From: a virus
Lineage: Duplodnaviria; Heunggongvirae; Uroviricota; Caudoviricetes
Strand: one strand, 5' to 3'
DNA: 64,000 nucleotides
Virus record (IMG/VR): IMGVR_UViG_2576861193_000004
Location: 42,259-106,258 of that record
In this document: piece by piece, positions 49,042-56,391 of the stretch
How positions within the stretch are numbered: position 1 is the first letter of the stretch
Layout of the letters: every line of letters begins with the position of its first letter
Position numbers and translations under genes: made by a program
Notes under the pieces: generated by a model
The model's database searches: none
Told to the model about the DNA's origin: nothing
The model's input: the letters and a program-made list of their open reading frames with translations, nothing else

Positions 49042-49914
49042 TCAGGGTGCTTTAGATCGCGCAGAGGAACATTGTTCAATGGAATACTCCGCTATGAATT
49101 TTTTGACGATCGGCGACTCTTTATTAAGCGTTAGATTTCCACCTTCTCTGGTGGCAATGCCTGTGGCCGGAAACACAGCCATCATCTGGCCAGCCTGAGT
49201 CGAAGCCGTGTTAAGTGGATATGGTTTCTCCGGGTAGCTCATTAGCGCCAGTTTAATGCTATTGCTGGTCGCCGTGTTCGTATCAAGAATATGGCGCATT
49301 GCGATTACCGTGTAGACGCTGATTTCCGGGCCACCACTAAACCAGTTCAGGAGGTTTAAGATTTTGTCTTTCGCTTTGACCGGCGCGCCTTCAAATGCGG
49401 CAGTAAAGCGCTCACTATCCAGACCGGCTGTCACATAGAACGATTCATCCTTACCCTCCAGCGTGAAGCGAGGTTTGGTCGGCGCACGCTTTGATTGTGC
49501 CTTCTGGTGTTTTGGCTGCTCTTCTTCAGGTTTAGGCCCAGACTCCACTGAAGGTAAAAGCGTTGGAGCTATATCGGTGGTCTCAGCGCTTCGAGCATCA
49601 AGTTCAGGTGTTGGCTCGTCCACTATCTCCGCAATAGGGCCACGCTCTGGCACCTCGACCTTCACCGATTCGTGTGCAATCTCAAGCTCTTCCAGAACGC
49701 CACTCAGATCGCCGGTAGAGCTGACATTCATGACTTCATCTGCCACCGCCTCGACTGGTTTTGCGATTGCATCATCCAGACCAGAAAGAAGATCGTCGAT
49801 CTCGTCGACACCGCTCATTTTCGCAGCTTTCTGAACCGGTTCTTCGAGAGATTGCAGCATTGCAGTCAATTCATCCAGGTCATCGTTTTTAACAATGTTT
49901 GAAACTGCGCTCAT
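49042..49914 (-). CDS. hypothetical protein
   Basis: Start set at MSAVSNIVKN; acidic/Pro-rich middle region. Confidence 0.3.
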   Translation of the reverse strand: MSAVSNIVKNDDLDELTAMLQSLEEPVQKAAKMSGVDEIDDLLSGLDDAIAKPVEAVADEVMNVSSTGDLSGVLEELEIAHESVKVEVPERGPIAEIVDEPTPELDARSAETTDIAPTLLPSVESGPKPEEEQPKHQKAQSKRAPTKPRFTLEGKDESFYVTAGLDSERFTAAFEGAPVKAKDKILNLLNWFSGGPEISVYTVIAMRHILDTNTATSNSIKLALMSYPEKPYPLNTASTQAGQMMAVFPATGIATREGGNLTLNKESPIVKKFIAEYSIEQCSSARSKAP

Positions 49915-50042
49915 TTTTAACTCCTTATGTTTTCGTTGGTGCATTTCCGCGTTTTGGTTGAGCTTATTCTGGCAAAACCTATCAGGCAGAAAAGTCATAA
50001 CTACAGGCAGTTAAAGGAACTGGAGGCAAAGAAAAAGCGCCA

Positions 50043-50606: not shown

Positions 50607-51041
50607 TTACAGCTTCTTCGCGCCTTTCAGCAGTGCGCCACGCACAAACTGAGCAGCCTTTTTTAGTGCGTCCTCGCCGCTTTCGCAGACGACCGGCTCA
50701 CGCCATTCGCCCGTTGACGTGTTGAGGAGCTGGATTTGGTTAGTCTCCAGGCAAACGGACACATACAAAACCGTACCGCCCGAGAGTTTGAGATGCATAG
50801 GAAACAGAGAGCGCTTGGTGCCGCCATTGAATTGCGACATCGCCGCATTAATGGCTTCACCAACCTCTTCCCCAACAAGACCTTGAACGGACTCAAACAC
50901 TGCTCGGATAGCCAGACGTGCTTCACGTTCACTCATTAAGGAACGGGATTGTTCGTCAGCAATACGGATCAGTGCTTCAATCGCTTTGCGATCTAATTCA
51001 TCCGACAGGGGAAGTTCATCTATCATTCTGTTTTTCCTCAA
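50607..51041 (-). CDS. hypothetical protein
   Basis: 144 aa ORF. Confidence 0.3.
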   Translation of the reverse strand: MRKNRMIDELPLSDELDRKAIEALIRIADEQSRSLMSEREARLAIRAVFESVQGLVGEEVGEAINAAMSQFNGGTKRSLFPMHLKLSGGTVLYVSVCLETNQIQLLNTSTGEWREPVVCESGEDALKKAAQFVRGALLKGAKKL

Positions 51042-51089: not shown

Positions 51090-51734
51090 TCAGTGGAAGG
51101 TCACTCGTCCTGTTATACGGCTCTCGATGTTTTCAGTGGCTCTTTCCAGCACACGCAATACCGATCTGGCTCGCGCCTCAACCGTGCGGCACTTTTCAGA
51201 GATAATGAAAACCTGCAAATCGCCGGTATGGGGAAGGGCACTAATTTTCGTCAGCTCGCCACACATAAGTGCATCGATGCGAGCAACATAGAGACGGTCA
51301 AGCGATCCTCGCTGGGGACGCGCGAGATCTTTGCCGGAAAGATCAACGCCCGGGCGAAGACCCGCTATAGCATTAAAGTTGGAAATGGCCGCTTTGTGGC
51401 AAAACTGCTCAATGTCGAGAGCCAGCTCGATGCAGCGGTCTTCGTTGGTCTGGCCGACCAGGTCAAGCGTATAAGCCATGACATCGGCTGGCGTGCGGTC
51501 GATGACAAAACCTTCAACGCCGCGGGTGATCATCTCGATGTGTCTGGCAATCTCCATCTGAACCTGAAGACGCTCGTAAAGGGGCAAACGCTCGCCAACC
51601 TTCACCCCCAGACTGCTCATCAGCTTGCCAACACCGGCATCCACATACGGAATGCCATAGTGCGCATCGATGTACCTTGCCAGGGTTGTTTTCCCACTGC
51701 CCTGTGCGCCAGTGATTCCAATCCGGTAATCCAT
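51090..51734 (-). CDS. P-loop nucleotide kinase-like protein (dNMP kinase-like)
   Basis: Walker A IGITGAQGSGKTTL; 214 aa; sits in nucleotide-metabolism cluster. Confidence 0.45.
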   Translation of the reverse strand: MDYRIGITGAQGSGKTTLARYIDAHYGIPYVDAGVGKLMSSLGVKVGERLPLYERLQVQMEIARHIEMITRGVEGFVIDRTPADVMAYTLDLVGQTNEDRCIELALDIEQFCHKAAISNFNAIAGLRPGVDLSGKDLARPQRGSLDRLYVARIDALMCGELTKISALPHTGDLQVFIISEKCRTVEARARSVLRVLERATENIESRITGRVTFH

Positions 51735-52210
51735 TACGACCTTCTGTATACGATCTGCAAAAAGCCAGGCTCATCCTCATTTGCACGTTGGGTATAAGCC
51801 GTTTCGACTGGTACGAACCCTAAAGAACGCATCATTGGCGCCGGGAAGAACGCATCCGCGCACGGCACATCCACGCCAATATGCGATAGCCAGATCTCTT
51901 CTACGTATGGCAGAAATAGCGAATAAATCTGCCCGCCACCAATCACCCAGACCGGAGCTGGTAGTTTCAAAACGTCATCGATGCCAGCGGGGTAGAAACC
52001 ATTGGGGATATAGCCACGAGAGCGCGTCAAAATGAGGTTATGGCGCTCTGGCAGCGGGCGTTTGAGACTTTCCATCGTCTTACGTCCCATCACGACAGTG
52101 GCGTTTTTGGTGAGTTGTTTGAACAGTTTCAGATCGGTCGGGCAACGCCAGGGAAGTTCGTTGCCAATGCCGATTTCATAGTTGCGGCCGACAGCTGCAA
52201 TCATCTTCAT
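51734..52210 (-). CDS. folA: dihydrofolate reductase
   Basis: MKMIAAVGRNYEIGIGNELPWRCPTDLKLFKQLTKNATVVMGRKTMESL then VWVIGGGQIY; 158 aa. Confidence 0.85.
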   Translation of the reverse strand: MKMIAAVGRNYEIGIGNELPWRCPTDLKLFKQLTKNATVVMGRKTMESLKRPLPERHNLILTRSRGYIPNGFYPAGIDDVLKLPAPVWVIGGGQIYSLFLPYVEEIWLSHIGVDVPCADAFFPAPMMRSLGFVPVETAYTQRANEDEPGFLQIVYRRS

Positions 52211-52620
52211 TGGCTTACCTCATAGATGGTTGGTCGCTGGTGAGAATCTGCCAGCGCAGAACGCAGACGCGGATCATGAACCAGTGCGGCGATAAGTAAG
52301 TCGCCTTTGTGCTCTGCCAGCGTGCGCTTGATATGGGTTTCAAAACTGACACCGCGCGGAACCAGGTGGAGCCAGTCATAATCAATGCCGAAGTCCTTCA
52401 GCCAGCGCTTGGTTGGGCCTTCGAGCGCTTCCGGACGACTACTGATAAGCACCACTTCAGCACCGGAGCGAGCAAAACCACGCAACATGCGGCTGGTGGG
52501 AAAGATGAGTTCATCACCGGCAATGAGAGCGCCTGCATCCGCATCAGGCACTGCTTTGCGATGGCTGGCTCTCGCCAGCACACCTTCAATTTCACACAAC
52601 ACATACATCCCTCTGGCCAT
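52207..52620 (-). CDS. hypothetical protein
   Basis: Start set at internal ATG adjacent to thyA-like stop; coupled to DHFR gene (4-nt overlap). Confidence 0.3.
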   Translation of the reverse strand: MARGMYVLCEIEGVLARASHRKAVPDADAGALIAGDELIFPTSRMLRGFARSGAEVVLISSRPEALEGPTKRWLKDFGIDYDWLHLVPRGVSFETHIKRTLAEHKGDLLIAALVHDPRLRSALADSHQRPTIYEVSQ

Positions 52621-52621
52621 A

Positions 52622-53737
52622 TCACACCGCCACTGGAACCTTGATCCACGGAAGAGGGCTGTAGCCGCACACCTGCACACCTTCCCATTTGAAGTCGTCC
52701 AGTTCGGCCCATTCATGCGGGAAGATGACTACCGGGTCGGACTCTTTGGGCGGCTCGCGCTTCATCAGTTCCTCAACGCCTTCCATGTGGTTGTCGTAGA
52801 GATGAACGTCAAAGCCAAAATGCACGAATGCGCCAGCCATGTGGCCGGTGATCTTCGCGAGGAAGTGGGTGAGAATGCCGTAACCGGCGATGTTGAACGG
52901 CATACCAACAAAGGTATCGACACTGCGTTGAACCAGGCATGAGTTCAGAATGCGTTTCGGGATGCCCAGCTCGTCCAGCATGTTCTCAGTAATGCCGCCA
53001 TCTCTTTCCAGAAGACACAGCATCTGGGTGTAAATGGACTCGTGGCCGTGGCGGTTGTGCTGTATGCCAATGTCGGTGGCCATAGTCAGTCGGGTCTCAA
53101 AGTCCAGCTCGCGACTCCACAGTGAAAACACGAAATGGCATGGCGGCAGCTTCATATCTTCCAGTTCGCCAACATTCCAGGCATTCAGCAGGATGCGACG
53201 ATCTGTAGGGTTGGTGCGAAGCGTGTCAACGATACGCTGTAGCTGGTCAATTTCACGGGACAACACAACGCGATCTTCACTTACGCCCAGATACCCCTCG
53301 ACCTTGTACCCGCGCTCACGGAACGTGTCGATTTTGCGCAGATACTCGCTATGGCTCACGATGCGAGTGTCTTCCCACCGACGCCATTGCTTGCCATAGA
53401 CCGGGCCTAAATCGCCATTTTCATCGGCCCAGGCATCCCAGATTTTGACGCCATTGTCTTTCAGGAACTGGATGTTGCCTGTTCCTTTGAGATACCACTC
53501 CAGCTCAACCAGTAACGGCTTCAGATTGACGGCTTTTCCGGAGATAAGTGGAACAGATCCGCCCGTCAGCATGTAGCAGGAAGGGACATATGAAACACTT
53601 TTTGTGCCGGTTCCGGTGCGATCACCCGCGTGAACGCCAGTGTTGAGCACCGTTTCAACCACTTTGGCATACGAACCACTGGCAAACTGACCGTTCGTAA
53701 AGTCTCGATTCAGTAGGATAGACAAAATCAACCTCAC
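52622..53737 (-). CDS. thyA: thymidylate synthase family protein with two internal insertions
   Basis: DRTGTGT, WADENGDLGPVYGKQWRRW, RRILLNAWNVGELEDMKLPPCH (catalytic Cys), QRSVDTFVGMPFNIAGY, HLYDNH; about 371 aa versus about 264 aa for E. coli ThyA; start is GTG/TTG. Confidence 0.75.
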   Translation of the reverse strand: MRLILSILLNRDFTNGQFASGSYAKVVETVLNTGVHAGDRTGTGTKSVSYVPSCYMLTGGSVPLISGKAVNLKPLLVELEWYLKGTGNIQFLKDNGVKIWDAWADENGDLGPVYGKQWRRWEDTRIVSHSEYLRKIDTFRERGYKVEGYLGVSEDRVVLSREIDQLQRIVDTLRTNPTDRRILLNAWNVGELEDMKLPPCHFVFSLWSRELDFETRLTMATDIGIQHNRHGHESIYTQMLCLLERDGGITENMLDELGIPKRILNSCLVQRSVDTFVGMPFNIAGYGILTHFLAKITGHMAGAFVHFGFDVHLYDNHMEGVEELMKREPPKESDPVVIFPHEWAELDDFKWEGVQVCGYSPLPWIKVPVAV

Positions 53738-53768: not shown

Positions 53769-53904
53769 ATACAAGTTTATCTGTCAGAAGTGTGTAAGGC
53801 TAGGAGGGGAGTAAAAAAAATGGTGGCTCTTCGGCCACCATTGCAATGAGCAATTAAGAACTTGGACAATAAAACACGCCAAGGCAATATATAATGATAA
53901 GTAC

Positions 53905-54783
53905 TCACTTACAATTATTTTTTACCATCTCGTAAAGAGATGAGGACTTCGCCTTCTCAACAAAGCAAGTCAGATCCACATCGCTGTAGGTGGGAGATTT
54001 GAGGATCTTGCCATCAGAAACCCTGAAACCGATCATCATGTCAGTCCCTTCAGCATGGCAGAAGCCCAGGTCTTCCTTGTCATATTTGCAATTCTCTACC
54101 GCCACACGACGCTCTTCGGCGTCAGCCGGCCACAGCTTGGTCATGTTGGAACGGTGGATTTCTGCCACCAGCTCAACAATATCGATTCCGAGAAAATCAG
54201 CCAGACGGTAGGTCATCATGCAGGCAACGTAGATTTTGTTCATCACGCGGCGCAGCTCCTGCACCAATTCGGAATCGCTTATCGGCTTCGCTTCAAGTTT
54301 GTCAGCCAACGCATTCAGCATTAATGCAGCTTCTTTTGCTTCTTCAAACGGGATAGCCATATCGTCAAAGACCGTGTTGCCCGGAACCATGATGGTGTGG
54401 ATGAAGCGATCAACACTCTGCTCTTGGGTGTAGTAACTCATGCCCGTCGAGATGCCGCCTTTGATGGCCACCATTGTGCCGACGCCCACGTAAAGGAAGT
54501 CAGCCATCGCGTCCAGCAGTGCCGTCATATCCCCATTTTTGGCTGCCGGGATGCCCTCGGTAACTGCTTCTTCGTGGATCAGCTTGGCACGCAGACGCAG
54601 TAATGCCGGATCTGGAATGGCACGGCGTGGGTGCTGAAACAGTGTGTGGAACTGGTCAACCATCAGGTAGATGCTTTCCGTTGTCTTGCCGAAACCGGGA
54701 TTCAACTCGTAAGGCTCTGGTTTAAACCCCACGAGTTTGTCTGCGGCAAGTTTCAGATGATCGGTCAGTTTCGTAAATTTCAT
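53905..54783 (-). CDS. hypothetical protein
   Basis: 292 aa ORF. Confidence 0.3.
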   Translation of the reverse strand: MKFTKLTDHLKLAADKLVGFKPEPYELNPGFGKTTESIYLMVDQFHTLFQHPRRAIPDPALLRLRAKLIHEEAVTEGIPAAKNGDMTALLDAMADFLYVGVGTMVAIKGGISTGMSYYTQEQSVDRFIHTIMVPGNTVFDDMAIPFEEAKEAALMLNALADKLEAKPISDSELVQELRRVMNKIYVACMMTYRLADFLGIDIVELVAEIHRSNMTKLWPADAEERRVAVENCKYDKEDLGFCHAEGTDMMIGFRVSDGKILKSPTYSDVDLTCFVEKAKSSSLYEMVKNNCK

Positions 54784-55048
54784 GTTTTCTTTCCTTTAGA
54801 CTTCTTTTGATACGCCAATTTTGACCCAGCAGCGCCAGGCCACAAAGTGGTTAAACTCGGCTTAGAGGTATTCGAACTGGCTCGGGCCAGTGCAATCGAC
54901 AGCGAACTTTGTCAGCGCTTCATGCAGCTGGCAGCGGCTCGGTGGGCGTTACGTTTTACGATACTTATTATGTGTAGCCCAATTAAAAAGACCACTATAT
55001 ATAGTGGCCTCATGGTAATAGATAAGCACTTACCTATCAATTATCAAC

Positions 55049-55618
55049 TTATAAAATTCCAGCAAGAACATCGCGAACCTGACGGAATTGATCAGTTTGC
55101 ATACCGGTGTAAATCGATGCGACAGCGTCCGCAAGGTGCTCGTTTTTATTCACCAGCACTTCCTTGCCCGATTGCTTCCGGCGCAACCACGGGGCGTTTG
55201 GCTGCTTCTGCGTAGCCCACTGAATGATCTCTTCTTTCGACGTAGTCAGCTTATTCCCGACATAGTACTTAATCTCGTTTGGCGTGACCTGTATCAGTGG
55301 CTTATCCACACACGCCAGTACGCCAAGACAACCACCATAAGAAACCATCGCTCTAGCAGATTGACTGCCTACTGGCAGTTCACAGAACACTAAATGAACT
55401 TGGTCAATCAGTGGCTTAATACCACGCCAAATCTCGTTCAACCGCCGCATATCGTCACTGTTAACGCGAACTTGCTTTTTCGTATCACCAGCTTTCGTCT
55501 CAATGAGATGCAACTTATTGACCTGCAATGCACCTGAATCCAGTTCTATTTCTCCGATGGCAACGCCAAAATTTGACAGAGATGGATCGAGACCTGCAAC
55601 TTTGATTACTTTTTTCAC
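55049..55618 (-). CDS. hypothetical protein, possibly RuvC-fold resolvase-like
   Basis: N-terminus VAGLDPSLSNFGVAIGE resembles RuvC/RNase H-fold start; weak. Confidence 0.3.
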   Translation of the reverse strand: MKKVIKVAGLDPSLSNFGVAIGEIELDSGALQVNKLHLIETKAGDTKKQVRVNSDDMRRLNEIWRGIKPLIDQVHLVFCELPVGSQSARAMVSYGGCLGVLACVDKPLIQVTPNEIKYYVGNKLTTSKEEIIQWATQKQPNAPWLRRKQSGKEVLVNKNEHLADAVASIYTGMQTDQFRQVRDVLAGIL

Positions 55619-56391
55619 TCTGTGACCTCCATTTCAACAAAATGCGGTAGATTGTGCTCTTCGATAAATCGCTTACGCGCTAAGTAAGCCTCCAATTCAT
55701 CGTGACATTGATACAAGAAGACACACTCTCCTTTCCACACAACTCTAGCAACCCAAACCTTGTTCGTTTTGCAGTAATGAACGCCAGTAAACTTCGACGT
55801 ACTACCATCCACTTTCCCTTGTTTATTTGCACTCTGGACGTGCTTGTCAGCCCACCTCAGATTCCCTGGTTCATATCCCTTGCTGGAGTCGATGCGATCA
55901 AGCGTAACCCCCTCTACAACTCTCTCCGTATCGGAAAACGGATAGCCCTCAAGTACGGAAACATACCTGTAAAAATTATCAAAATCCTCGAACCCGGTGG
56001 CGTAAGATATTCCCCGTCCTCCATACTTTTCGTATCTTGCCCGATTTGGATTGTTACAACGCGCCTTCATACTTGCCCAAGTCCAGTACAGAGGGTTTTC
56101 CATGACTTTATATTCTGCGTTCTGGCGATATATTCCGGCACATTTGTTTGAGCAGGTCTTCTGTCTGACTCGCTTCGCGTTCTCAAGGTTTGCAGAGAAT
56201 CGATGACCGCAGATAAAGCATTCAAGCTCAACAATTCGGCGCTTACGCCCCCTTGAATCAAATATTGGCTCCAACTCTCTAATGAAATTTCCGTCGAAAT
56301 CGTCGGGATTGATAGGTTTCGCATCTTTTCTTAATTTTGTCGCTCTTCCTCTCACTTTTGGTCTCCTTACCACGTAGCCCAGGTTGGGCAT
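55615..56391 (-). CDS. HNH-type endonuclease with AP2-like DNA-binding domain (homing-endonuclease-like)
   Basis: Zinc-ribbon CFICGH..CSNKC, HNH-like LDRIDSSKGYEPGNLRWADKHVQ, AP2-like FTGVHYCKTNKVWVARVVWKGECVFLYQCHDELEAYLARKRF. Confidence 0.55.
   Translation of the reverse strand: MPNLGYVVRRPKVRGRATKLRKDAKPINPDDFDGNFIRELEPIFDSRGRKRRIVELECFICGHRFSANLENAKRVRQKTCSNKCAGIYRQNAEYKVMENPLYWTWASMKARCNNPNRARYEKYGGRGISYATGFEDFDNFYRYVSVLEGYPFSDTERVVEGVTLDRIDSSKGYEPGNLRWADKHVQSANKQGKVDGSTSKFTGVHYCKTNKVWVARVVWKGECVFLYQCHDELEAYLARKRFIEEHNLPHFVEMEVTE

What the first reader, a model, noticed from the sequence alone, without database searches (positions are those of the whole stretch)
52622..53737. Thymidylate-synthase family enzyme with two large insertions and a non-ATG start
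All core TS motifs are present (DRTGTGT, catalytic PPCH Cys, QRS.D.F.G.PFNIA.Y, HLYDNH). There is an insertion of about 40 aa after the WADENGDLGPVYGKQWRRW segment and about 60 aa after the catalytic Cys segment, giving roughly 371 aa. The adjacent DHFR argues for genuine dTMP synthesis (TS produces dihydrofolate), but the insertions could alter substrate specificity, for example a hydroxymethylase making modified pyrimidines. A P-loop kinase, a DnaQ-like exonuclease and an orphan Dam-like methyltransferase lie in the same cluster.
Basis: partly seen in the sequence, partly recalled or inferred. Interest (0 to 1): 0.4.

Follow-up and report, generated by a model that had tools for sequence, protein, structure and literature searches.

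The report
Phage thymidylate synthase with two inserts
This is an ordinary dTMP-making thymidylate synthase of an SSU5-like phage-plasmid; its two extra, well-folded surface segments are shared by many phage versions of the enzyme, are unstudied, and show no sign of changing the chemistry.

Summary
A 371-codon ORF lies on the minus strand at 52622-53737. It is a ThyA-type thymidylate synthase (TS) with every catalytic motif and two in-frame insertions of 37 and 57 aa. The real start is most likely TTG at 53725 (367 aa), behind a conserved GAGG.

The window is an E. coli SSU5-like phage-plasmid (100% to pCP53-113k). The gene is already annotated there and in phage SSU5 as thymidylate synthase.

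The hydroxymethylase idea is not supported:
- The residues that set dUMP specificity (Asn177, His147) and the C-terminal PVAV tail are kept.
- The experimentally known SPO1 dUMP hydroxymethylase is 17-21% identical, has no insertions at these sites, and lacks those motifs.
- The gene heads a tightly packed run of four genes that includes a functional DHFR (DfrA51).

The insertions are not peculiar to this element. At least 281 protein clusters (50% identity) match the insert-spanning query segment at E ≤ 1e-10. The contexts I examined were phage contigs, and predicted jumbo-phage TS structures match over the inserts.

The insertions are confidently folded (pLDDT 94-98) and under purifying selection. 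They carry a ≥90% conserved Arg and Pro. They match no Pfam family and no solved fold.

Verdict: a canonical TS from an uncharacterised, widespread phage subfamily. The role of the inserts is unknown; a docking or stabilising surface is my inference. Low interest.

The parts
52622..53725 (-). Thymidylate synthase (ThyA type) coding sequence, 367 aa, TTG start, stop included. The mechanical ORF extends to the GTG at 53737.
   Evidence: The start matches the SSU5 and RefSeq annotation and is conserved as TTG or GTG in relatives.
53732..53735 (-). Shine-Dalgarno GAGG, 6 nt upstream of the TTG start.
   Evidence: Sequence read. It is conserved in SSU5, Cyrano and two Klebsiella plasmids.
53258..53368 (-). 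Insertion 1: residues 120-156 in 367-numbering, TRIVSHSEYLRKIDTFRERGYKVEGYLGVSEDRVVLS. Predicted as strand, two short helices, then two strands. It sits at the same site as the 8-residue mammalian insert at human position 146.
   Evidence: Boundaries. Secondary structure and pLDDT of about 95-98. Conserved W.DTR.V...GY pattern. The site equivalence is by arithmetic from PMC5929524.
52946..53116 (-). Insertion 2: residues 204-260, SRELDFETRL...DELGIPKRIL. Predicted as three helices at the tip of the beta hairpin that follows the catalytic Cys strand. It contains the ≥90% conserved Arg212 and Pro256.
   Evidence: Boundaries. Helices 209-225, 231-242 and 247-253 with pLDDT 94-98. The same segment still models at pLDDT 94-98 in a fragment without most of the core. 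Conservation.
53138..53140 (-). Codon of the catalytic Cys196 (E. coli Cys146) in PPCH.
   Evidence: Invariant column. Mapped to Ec C146.
53819..53842 (-). Terminator-like hairpin plus T-run between the MazG-like gene and the TS gene. It suggests the TS gene begins a new transcription unit.
   Evidence: a consensus scan only.
52207..52620 (-). HAD/PNKP-phosphatase-like protein, 137 aa, immediately downstream of TS.
   Evidence: Weak Pfam HAD_PNKP hit (0.0046), phrog_5387 at 4.8e-87 and phrog_415 polynucleotide kinase at 2.4e-08. Start follows the SSU5 annotation.
51734..52210 (-). Dihydrofolate reductase (DfrA51). Its start overlaps the stop of the HAD-like gene.
   Evidence: PF00186 at 1.3e-34. 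NCBIfam DfrA51 at 351.6 bits against a cut-off of 322. The SSU5 allele was shown to be functional in E. coli (PMC12217456).
51090..51734 (-). P-loop nucleotide-kinase-like protein. Its start overlaps the DHFR stop.
   Evidence: AAA_28 at 1.5e-09; weak (d)CMP kinase and thymidylate-kinase PHROG matches.
53905..54783 (-). MazG-like nucleotide pyrophosphohydrolase upstream of TS.
   Evidence: PRA-PH at 3.6e-09 and phrog_671 at 8.3e-46.

Best explanation
The gene encodes a canonical ThyA-type thymidylate synthase of an SSU5-like phage-plasmid. It should methylate dUMP to dTMP with 5,10-methylene-tetrahydrofolate and release dihydrofolate. The DHFR two genes downstream (DfrA51) would then re-reduce the dihydrofolate.

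The gene is the first of a tightly packed run of four: TS, a HAD-like protein, DHFR and a P-loop kinase. This run lets the element make thymidylate independently of the host.

The two insertions are real, translated, folded parts of the protein. Insertion 1 is a small beta/alpha unit at the loop after the Y94 helix. Insertion 2 is a three-helix unit at the tip of the hairpin formed by the catalytic Cys strand and the Arg166 strand. They belong to a large, mostly phage-borne TS subfamily and leave every catalytic and specificity residue untouched.

The remaining steps are inferred, not shown:
- The inserts sit at the end of the central sheet far from the active site.
- They probably pack together as an add-on surface module.
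- That module probably serves as a docking or stabilising surface, for example for partner enzymes of phage nucleotide metabolism or an extended dimer contact, rather than altering chemistry.
For: Family membership:
- Pfam and NCBIfam TS models are passed.
- The AF2 model has pLDDT 93.8 and pTM 0.92, and superposes on E. coli TS with TM 0.94 normalised to the target.

Catalytic residues:
- The equivalents of Ec R21, E58, W80, W83, Y94, R126, R127, C146, H147, R166, D169, N177, H207 and Y209 fall in invariant columns (mapped).
- The C-terminal PVAV is kept.

Specificity and coupling:
- N177 and H147 are the discriminating positions (PMC8670742).
- TS, but not a hydroxymethylase, needs DHFR (PMC4528723).
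- The DHFR is co-directional with overlapping stop and start codons. It is DfrA51, shown active in E. coli (PMC12217456).

The inserts are constrained protein:
- pN/pS is 0.06-0.26 in the inserts against 0.09-0.18 in the core, while synonymous sites are near saturation.
- pLDDT is 94-98 in the full model and for insertion 2 in the fragment model; insertion 1 scores about 81-97 in the fragment.
- The sequences carry conserved W.DTR.V/GY and SREL..ER / LD..IP.R.L patterns, with Arg and Pro ≥90% conserved over 83 sequences.

Distribution:
- 281 clusters at 50% identity match the insert-spanning segment at E ≤ 1e-10.
- Of 205 full-length relatives, 123 have both inserts, 19 have insertion 1 only and 2 have insertion 2 only.
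- All contexts examined are phage-like.
- Predicted jumbo-phage TS structures match with TMq 0.83-0.84, against 0.68 for insert-free E. coli TS.
Against: - No enzymatic or genetic test of this protein, or of any insert-bearing TS, was found in the searchable literature.
- I could not read model coordinates. The position of the inserts relative to the active site and to each other rests on strand topology recalled from E. coli TS, the high pTM, and the near-absence of insertion 2 without insertion 1.
- A ≥90% conserved Arg inside insertion 2 could mean a ligand or partner contact that I cannot place.
- The neighbouring MazG-like pyrophosphohydrolase, HAD-like protein and P-loop kinase superficially resemble the helper set of hmU or hmC phages.
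Confidence: 0.85

Rival explanations
1. The enzyme is a dUMP hydroxymethylase, or another pyrimidine C5-modifying TS homologue. The insertions open the active site to water, and the MazG-like, HAD-like and kinase neighbours feed a modified-base pathway.
For: - The gene neighbourhood contains an NTP pyrophosphohydrolase, a phosphatase-like protein and a P-loop kinase. This loosely recalls the SPO1 and T4 pathways described in PMC8989533.
- Known dUMP hydroxymethylases are also longer than TS, at 382-407 aa (PMC4528723).
Against: - SPO1 gp29 is 17-21% identical. Its extra length is C-terminal, not at these sites. It has PCN, and it lacks DRTGTGT, PFNIA and the PVAV tail.
- The protein keeps N177 and H147 (PMC8670742).
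- T4-type dCMP hydroxymethylases are remote in structure, with TMq 0.46.
- A functional DHFR lies in the same gene run, which only a true TS needs (PMC4528723, PMC12217456).
- The core is 44-49% identical to bona fide bacterial ThyA.
Confidence: 0.04
2. The enzyme is a canonical TS, and the insertions are functionally neutral loop expansions. They sit at two surface sites that tolerate extra sequence and have no role beyond being accommodated.
For: - Site 1 coincides with a known mammalian insertion site (PMC5929524).
- Insert sequences diverge faster than the core: 10-25% identity between distant members against 43-48% for the core.
- Lengths vary: net +11 to +35 at site 1 and +28 to +64 at site 2 among the homologous-protein hits.
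- Insert-free TS works perfectly well.
Against: - The inserts are retained across hundreds of diverged phage TS clusters.
- pN/pS is as low as in the core within the SSU5 family.
- They model as a confident, defined fold.
- An Arg and a Pro are ≥90% conserved.
- They are retained even in a jumbo-phage TS whose core is 78% identical to E. coli ThyA.
Confidence: 0.3
3. The insertions are remnants of a mobile element inside the gene, such as a degenerate intein, a translated group I intron or a homing-endonuclease fragment.
For: TS genes are classic targets. Metagenomic relatives carry LAGLIDADG inteins at the catalytic Cys, and the phage T4 td gene has a group I intron (my own knowledge; compare PMC3984707).
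Against: - There is no Rfam match in the gene at E ≤ 1.
- The inserts match no Pfam Hint, intein or endonuclease model.
- Insertion 2 begins 8 residues after the Cys, not at it.
- The segments are 37 and 57 aa, are helical or beta elements under purifying selection, and are shared in-frame by diverged homologues.
Confidence: 0.01

Closest known systems
E. coli ThyA and other bacterial ThyA-type thymidylate synthases (EC 2.1.1.45, PF00303, TIGR03284)
   Same: The fold matches (TM 0.94 on the E. coli chain). All catalytic and substrate-binding residues, the C-terminal tail and pairing with DHFR are shared. The core is 44-49% identical.
   Different: There are 37- and 57-aa structured insertions at Ec 103-106 and Ec 154-159, an N-terminal extension of about 17 residues, and a TTG start. 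No solved TS covers the inserts (best TMq 0.71).
Jumbo-phage thymidylate synthases (Pseudomonas phage 201phi2-1 B3FJL1, Erwinia phage Yoloswag, Cronobacter phage CR5 and Erwinia EarlPhillipIV/phiEaH2-type)
   Same: They carry insertions at the same two sites, with the same conserved patterns and superposable predicted structure (TMq 0.78-0.84).
   Different: Many also carry a third insertion of 70-200 aa at the small-domain site (class 'A12', 43 of 205 sequences). Sequence identity to the window protein is only 25-31% in the structural alignments.
Mammalian and Lactobacillus casei TS with small-domain insertions
   Same: Insertion 1 lies at the site of the 8-residue mammalian insert at human position 146 (PMC5929524; the offset arithmetic is mine).
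   Different: The mammalian insert at position 117 and the L. casei 50-residue insert (my own knowledge) lie at Ec 82-89, where this protein has no insertion (g0 = 0). Nothing comparable to insertion 2 is found in the solved structures retrieved.
SPO1 gp29 dUMP hydroxymethylase and T4 gp42 dCMP hydroxymethylase
   Same: They belong to the same superfamily, with a catalytic Cys and methylene-tetrahydrofolate chemistry.
   Different: Sequence identity to SPO1 gp29 is 17-21%, and about 12% in the structural alignment to a T4-type gp42 (Acinetobacter phage Acj9). They lack N177/H147, or the PFNIA, DRTGTGT and PVAV motifs, and have no inserts at these sites.

Membership tests
ThyA-type thymidylate synthase | Matches the curated family models above their thresholds | tested here: met
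   PF00303 at 266 bits against a cut-off of 24.3. TIGR03284 equivalog at 220.8 bits against 108.35. The narrower PRK01827 sub-models are not reached, because the inserts split the match.
ThyA-type thymidylate synthase | Catalytic Cys in P-C-H, with the phosphate-binding arginines (Ec R21, R126, R127, R166) | tested here: met
   C196, H197, R36, R176, R177 and R267 (367-numbering) are invariant columns. Mapping to E. coli is.
ThyA-type thymidylate synthase | dUMP specificity residues Asn177 and His147, plus Y94, E58, W80 and D169 | tested here: met
   All are present. Their discriminating role is described in PMC8670742.
ThyA-type thymidylate synthase | C-terminal tail ending ...P-V-A-V/I, which closes the active site over the folate | tested here: met
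   The protein ends ...WIKVPVAV. The role of the tail is from my own knowledge of TS structures.
ThyA-type thymidylate synthase | TS fold | tested here: met
   AF2 model with pLDDT 93.8. Foldseek E = 2.7e-30 and TMt 0.94 to 1nce_A.
ThyA-type thymidylate synthase | Produces dTMP and dihydrofolate; complements a thyA mutant | not testable with these tools
   No experimental report was found.
dUMP hydroxymethylase (SPO1 gp29 type) | Sequence relationship to the characterised enzyme and its motif set (PCN, C-terminal extension, no PVAV tail) | tested here: not met
   BLASTP E = 0.001 with 17% identity over 198 columns. The alignment shows the different motifs and no insertion at either site.
dUMP hydroxymethylase (SPO1 gp29 type) | Independence from DHFR (the reaction yields tetrahydrofolate) | tested here: not met
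   A DHFR lies in the same gene run. The reasoning follows PMC4528723. This is contextual evidence, not biochemical.
dCMP hydroxymethylase or dCMP methylase (T4 gp42 type) | Asp at the Ec177 position | tested here: not met
   The residue is Asn. A gp42 homologue ranks 42nd in the structure search, with TMq 0.46 and 12% identity.
Intein- or intron-interrupted TS gene | Hint/LAGLIDADG domain at the catalytic Cys, or a group I intron RNA | tested here: not met
   The inserts give no Pfam hit and the gene gives no Rfam hit. Relatives that do carry inteins show them clearly.
Bifunctional DHFR-TS | DHFR domain fused to TS in one polypeptide | tested here: not met
   DHFR is a separate ORF, 51734-52210, with a HAD-like ORF between it and TS.

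The most novel reading that the evidence does not exclude
The two inserts together form a phage-specific add-on module. It is kept even when the catalytic core is nearly host-like (78% identity to E. coli ThyA in the jumbo-phage-type protein P0044). The module would give phage TS a function that host ThyA lacks. Examples are docking to DHFR, ribonucleotide reductase or kinase partners in a phage dNTP-synthesising complex, or blocking mixing with or control by host factors. It may also move between TS genes by recombination through the highly conserved flanking motifs.
Probability: 0.2. Interest if true: 0.5.

Novelty: new variant of a known kind. Interest (0 to 1): 0.22.

Why it matters
The enzyme's function is ordinary, and the gene is already annotated as thymidylate synthase in SSU5 and in RefSeq plasmids. 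What is new is modest. About a quarter of the protein is a structured addition that is conserved and under selection. This addition defines a large, mostly phage-borne TS subfamily found in phage-plasmids of Enterobacterales and in jumbo phages. No structure or biochemical study of this subfamily turned up.

If the inserts mediate partner binding, they would give a handle on how phages organise nucleotide synthesis. There is also a practical point. The gene sits with the trimethoprim-resistance DHFR DfrA51 on very common clinical phage-plasmids, so the element carries a complete folate-thymidylate bypass.

Tried and rejected
- Group I intron or other RNA in the gene: the Rfam E-value scan found nothing relevant.
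- Pfam on the isolated insert sequences at E ≤ 10: only a chance Sedlin_N hit at 0.011 for insertion 1 and nothing for insertion 2.
- The afdb50 structure library was not available.
- Model coordinates are not exposed, so I could not measure distances from the inserts to the active site or to each other.
- Literature searches for SSU5 or pHCM2 TS, jumbo-phage TS insertions and phage TS inserts found no description of these insertions.
- A core-only neighbour-joining tree did not recover insert-bearing TS as one clade. The method is crude, so I draw no firm conclusion about single or multiple origin.
- dN/dS proper could not be computed for most comparisons, because synonymous sites are saturated. 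I report pN/pS instead.

Full report
**Observation**

The minus strand carries an open reading frame at 52622-53737 of 371 codons, starting with GTG. It matches Pfam Thymidylat_synt at 3.7e-79 in two stretches. It also passes the NCBIfam TS equivalog TIGR03284, at 220.8 bits against a cut-off of 108.

phmmer against PDB sequences aligns it to E. coli TS in three blocks: query 22-122 = Ec 3-102, 161-207 = Ec 107-153, and 265-371 = Ec 160-264. Two segments therefore have no counterpart.
- Insertion 1 is 37 aa and replaces the Ec 103-106 loop.
- Insertion 2 is 57 aa and replaces the tip of the hairpin that follows the catalytic Cys strand.

The start needs a small correction. SSU5 and RefSeq annotate a 367-aa product starting at the TTG at 53725. 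A GAGG lies 6-7 nt upstream of that codon in the window, SSU5, phage Cyrano and two Klebsiella plasmids. The codon is TTG in four of these and GTG in Cyrano. The upstream GTG at 53737 is not conserved in Klebsiella. The start is non-ATG either way.

**What the element is**

The region is 100% identical to E. coli plasmid pCP53-113k (IncFIB, non-mobilizable). The TS gene is 99.2% identical to the TS gene of Salmonella phage SSU5. The window is therefore an SSU5-like phage-plasmid. In total 759 plasmid records match the 6-kb segment around TS, at least in part. They come from Klebsiella, Escherichia, Enterobacter, Yersinia, Salmonella and Citrobacter.

On the minus strand, a terminator-like hairpin (53842-53819) follows the MazG-like gene. 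After it come four genes with adjacent or overlapping stop and start codons:
- TS
- a 137-aa HAD/PNKP-phosphatase-like protein
- DHFR
- a P-loop kinase-like protein

The DHFR passes NCBIfam's DfrA51 cut-off. The SSU5 allele has been cloned and shown to raise the trimethoprim MIC in E. coli, so it is an active DHFR (PMC12217456).

**Is it a synthase or a hydroxymethylase?**

Every residue I could map to the E. coli enzyme is kept: R21, E58, W80, W83, Y94, R126, R127, C146, H147, R166, D169, N177, H207 and Y209. The C-terminal ...IKVPVAV is kept as well.

Positions 177 and 147 are the two that best separate canonical TS from cytosine-modifying homologues in a metagenomic association study (PMC8670742). 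Here they are Asn and His.

I fetched the experimentally established dUMP hydroxymethylase of phage SPO1 (gp29, 383 aa) and compared it directly.
- It is 17-21% identical to the window protein.
- It has no insertion at either site.
- Its extra length is a C-terminal extension of about 120 aa.
- It reads PCN instead of PCH.
- It lacks DRTGTGT, PFNIA and the PVAV tail.

T4-type dCMP hydroxymethylases are remote in the structure search, at rank 42 with TMq 0.46.

TS oxidises its folate to dihydrofolate and so needs DHFR. Hydroxymethylases do not (PMC4528723). Here an active DHFR lies in the same gene run.

I put the hydroxymethylase reading at about 4%.

**What the insertions are**

An AlphaFold2 model built on 42 sequences has mean pLDDT 93.8 and pTM 0.92.
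- Insertion 1 is predicted as an extended strand, two short helices and two more strands.
- Insertion 2 is predicted as three helices.
- Both score pLDDT 94-98, higher than some core loops.

E. coli TS superposes with TM 0.94 normalised to its own length, but only 0.68 normalised to the query. No solved TS exceeds 0.71. No solved TS retrieved in the search therefore covers the inserts.

The inserts give no Pfam match, and the gene holds no Rfam family. Insertion 2 begins eight residues after the catalytic Cys. Relatives that do carry inteins have them exactly at that Cys, with clear Hint and LAGLIDADG domains. The inserts are therefore not intein or intron remnants.

**Are the inserts constrained?**

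Within the SSU5 family, synonymous sites are near saturation (pS 0.57-0.95). Non-synonymous differences in the inserts are low (pN 0.03-0.25) and comparable with the core (0.07-0.12).

Over 83 insert-bearing sequences, several patterns persist.
- Insertion 1 keeps W.DTR.V and GY.
- Insertion 2 keeps SREL...ER and LD...IP.R.L.
- Within insertion 2, the Arg (R212 in 367-numbering) and the Pro (P256) are ≥90% conserved.

Between distant members the rest of the insert sequence is only 10-25% identical, against 43-48% for the core. The inserts evolve faster than the core but are clearly selected.

**How widespread the inserts are**

A full HMMER scan of 1.84 billion cluster representatives used the segment spanning both inserts as the query. 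It found 281 clusters at E ≤ 1e-10 and 3305 at E ≤ 0.001.

Of 205 full-length relatives collected in two searches:
- 80 have both inserts
- 43 have both plus a third insertion of 70-200 aa at the small-domain site
- 19 have insertion 1 without insertion 2
- 2 have insertion 2 without insertion 1
- 61 have none

This sample is biased by the query. Even so, the asymmetry fits insertion 2 depending on insertion 1.

Every context I looked at is phage-like: contigs of 58-356 kb with small unannotated ORFs, thymidylate kinase, ribonucleotide reductase, queuosine-pathway genes and RecA.

Predicted structures of jumbo-phage TS match the model with TMq 0.78-0.84, so they cover the inserts. Examples are Pseudomonas phage 201phi2-1 and Erwinia phage Yoloswag.

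One relative, P0044, is 78% identical to E. coli ThyA in the core yet has both inserts. Its nearest isolates are Cronobacter phage CR5 and Erwinia jumbo phages. In a crude core-only neighbour-joining tree, insert-bearing and insert-free TS are interspersed. I do not over-read this. It leaves open either strong rate variation or exchange of segments between phage and host-like TS genes.

**Relation to known insertions**

Mammalian TS has inserts of 12 and 8 residues at human positions 117 and 146, plus a 29-residue N-terminal extension (PMC5929524). By offset arithmetic these correspond to Ec ~88 and Ec ~105. Insertion 1 thus occupies the second mammalian site but is four to five times longer. 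The first mammalian site is also where L. casei TS has its 50-residue insert (my own knowledge). This protein has no insertion there. I found no precedent for insertion 2 among the solved structures retrieved.

**Mechanism**

Shown here: family membership, the fold, an intact catalytic and specificity apparatus, coupling to an active DHFR, and translated, constrained inserts shared by many phage TS.

Inferred:
- The enzyme makes dTMP and dihydrofolate.
- The inserts lie at the end of the central sheet far from the active site. The Cys146 strand runs away from the site and the Arg166 strand runs back, so the hairpin tip is about ten residues away. This topology is from my knowledge of E. coli TS.
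- The two inserts pack together. This rests on pTM 0.92 and the co-occurrence pattern.
- They act as a docking or stabilising surface. Insertion 2 contains more acidic than basic residues on inspection, which argues against nucleic-acid binding.

I could not read coordinates, so the geometric steps remain untested.

**Verdict**

This is a canonical, already annotated thymidylate synthase. Its two inserts are real and mildly interesting as the hallmark of an unstudied, widespread phage TS subfamily. Nothing points to altered chemistry.

Noticed in passing
window 51734-52210 (-): The DHFR next to TS passes NCBIfam's cut-off for the trimethoprim-resistance enzyme DfrA51 (351.6 bits against 322). 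The SSU5 allele was recently shown to raise trimethoprim MIC in E. coli (PMC12217456).
   Followed up: partly
window 52207-52620 (-): The HAD/PNKP-phosphatase-like protein between TS and DHFR reads VLCEIEGVL where HAD phosphatases have the D-x-D nucleophile motif, so Glu replaces both Asp. It may be inactive or unusual. Phage Cyrano annotates its homologue as a polynucleotide kinase-phosphatase homologue.
   Followed up: no
window 54784-55048 and 55615-56391 (-): Compared with phage SSU5, this plasmid lacks nrdA and nrdB between the MazG-like gene and the RuvC-like gene. An HNH-endonuclease-like ORF (phrog_374, 5.2e-35) lies just beyond the RuvC-like gene.
   Followed up: partly
proteins P0137, P0154, P0179, P0194, P0217 (metagenomic relatives): Several insert-bearing TS relatives of 615-720 aa also carry a LAGLIDADG intein inserted exactly at the catalytic Cys (TS profile position ~148).
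   Followed up: partly
locus L009 145-1191 (protein P0044): This TS is 78% identical to E. coli ThyA in the core but carries both inserts. The nearest isolates are Cronobacter phage CR5 and Erwinia jumbo phages. Insert-bearing TS are not monophyletic in a crude core-only tree. That could reflect rate variation or exchange of segments between phage and host-like TS genes.
   Followed up: partly
locus L011 301-1404 (Escherichia phage Cyrano): The public record labels this ThyA-type gene 'ThyX Thymidylate synthase'. That is a misannotation, because ThyX is the unrelated flavin-dependent enzyme.
   Followed up: no
window 53905-54783 (-): In the 292-aa MazG-like pyrophosphohydrolase, only residues 42-106 match the Pfam PRA-PH domain. 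The rest has no Pfam or NCBIfam match.
   Followed up: no
window 50607-51041 (-) and 49042-49998 (-): Two conserved phage-plasmid ORFs (phrog_5373 and phrog_5235) in the same co-directional cluster have no known function.
   Followed up: no
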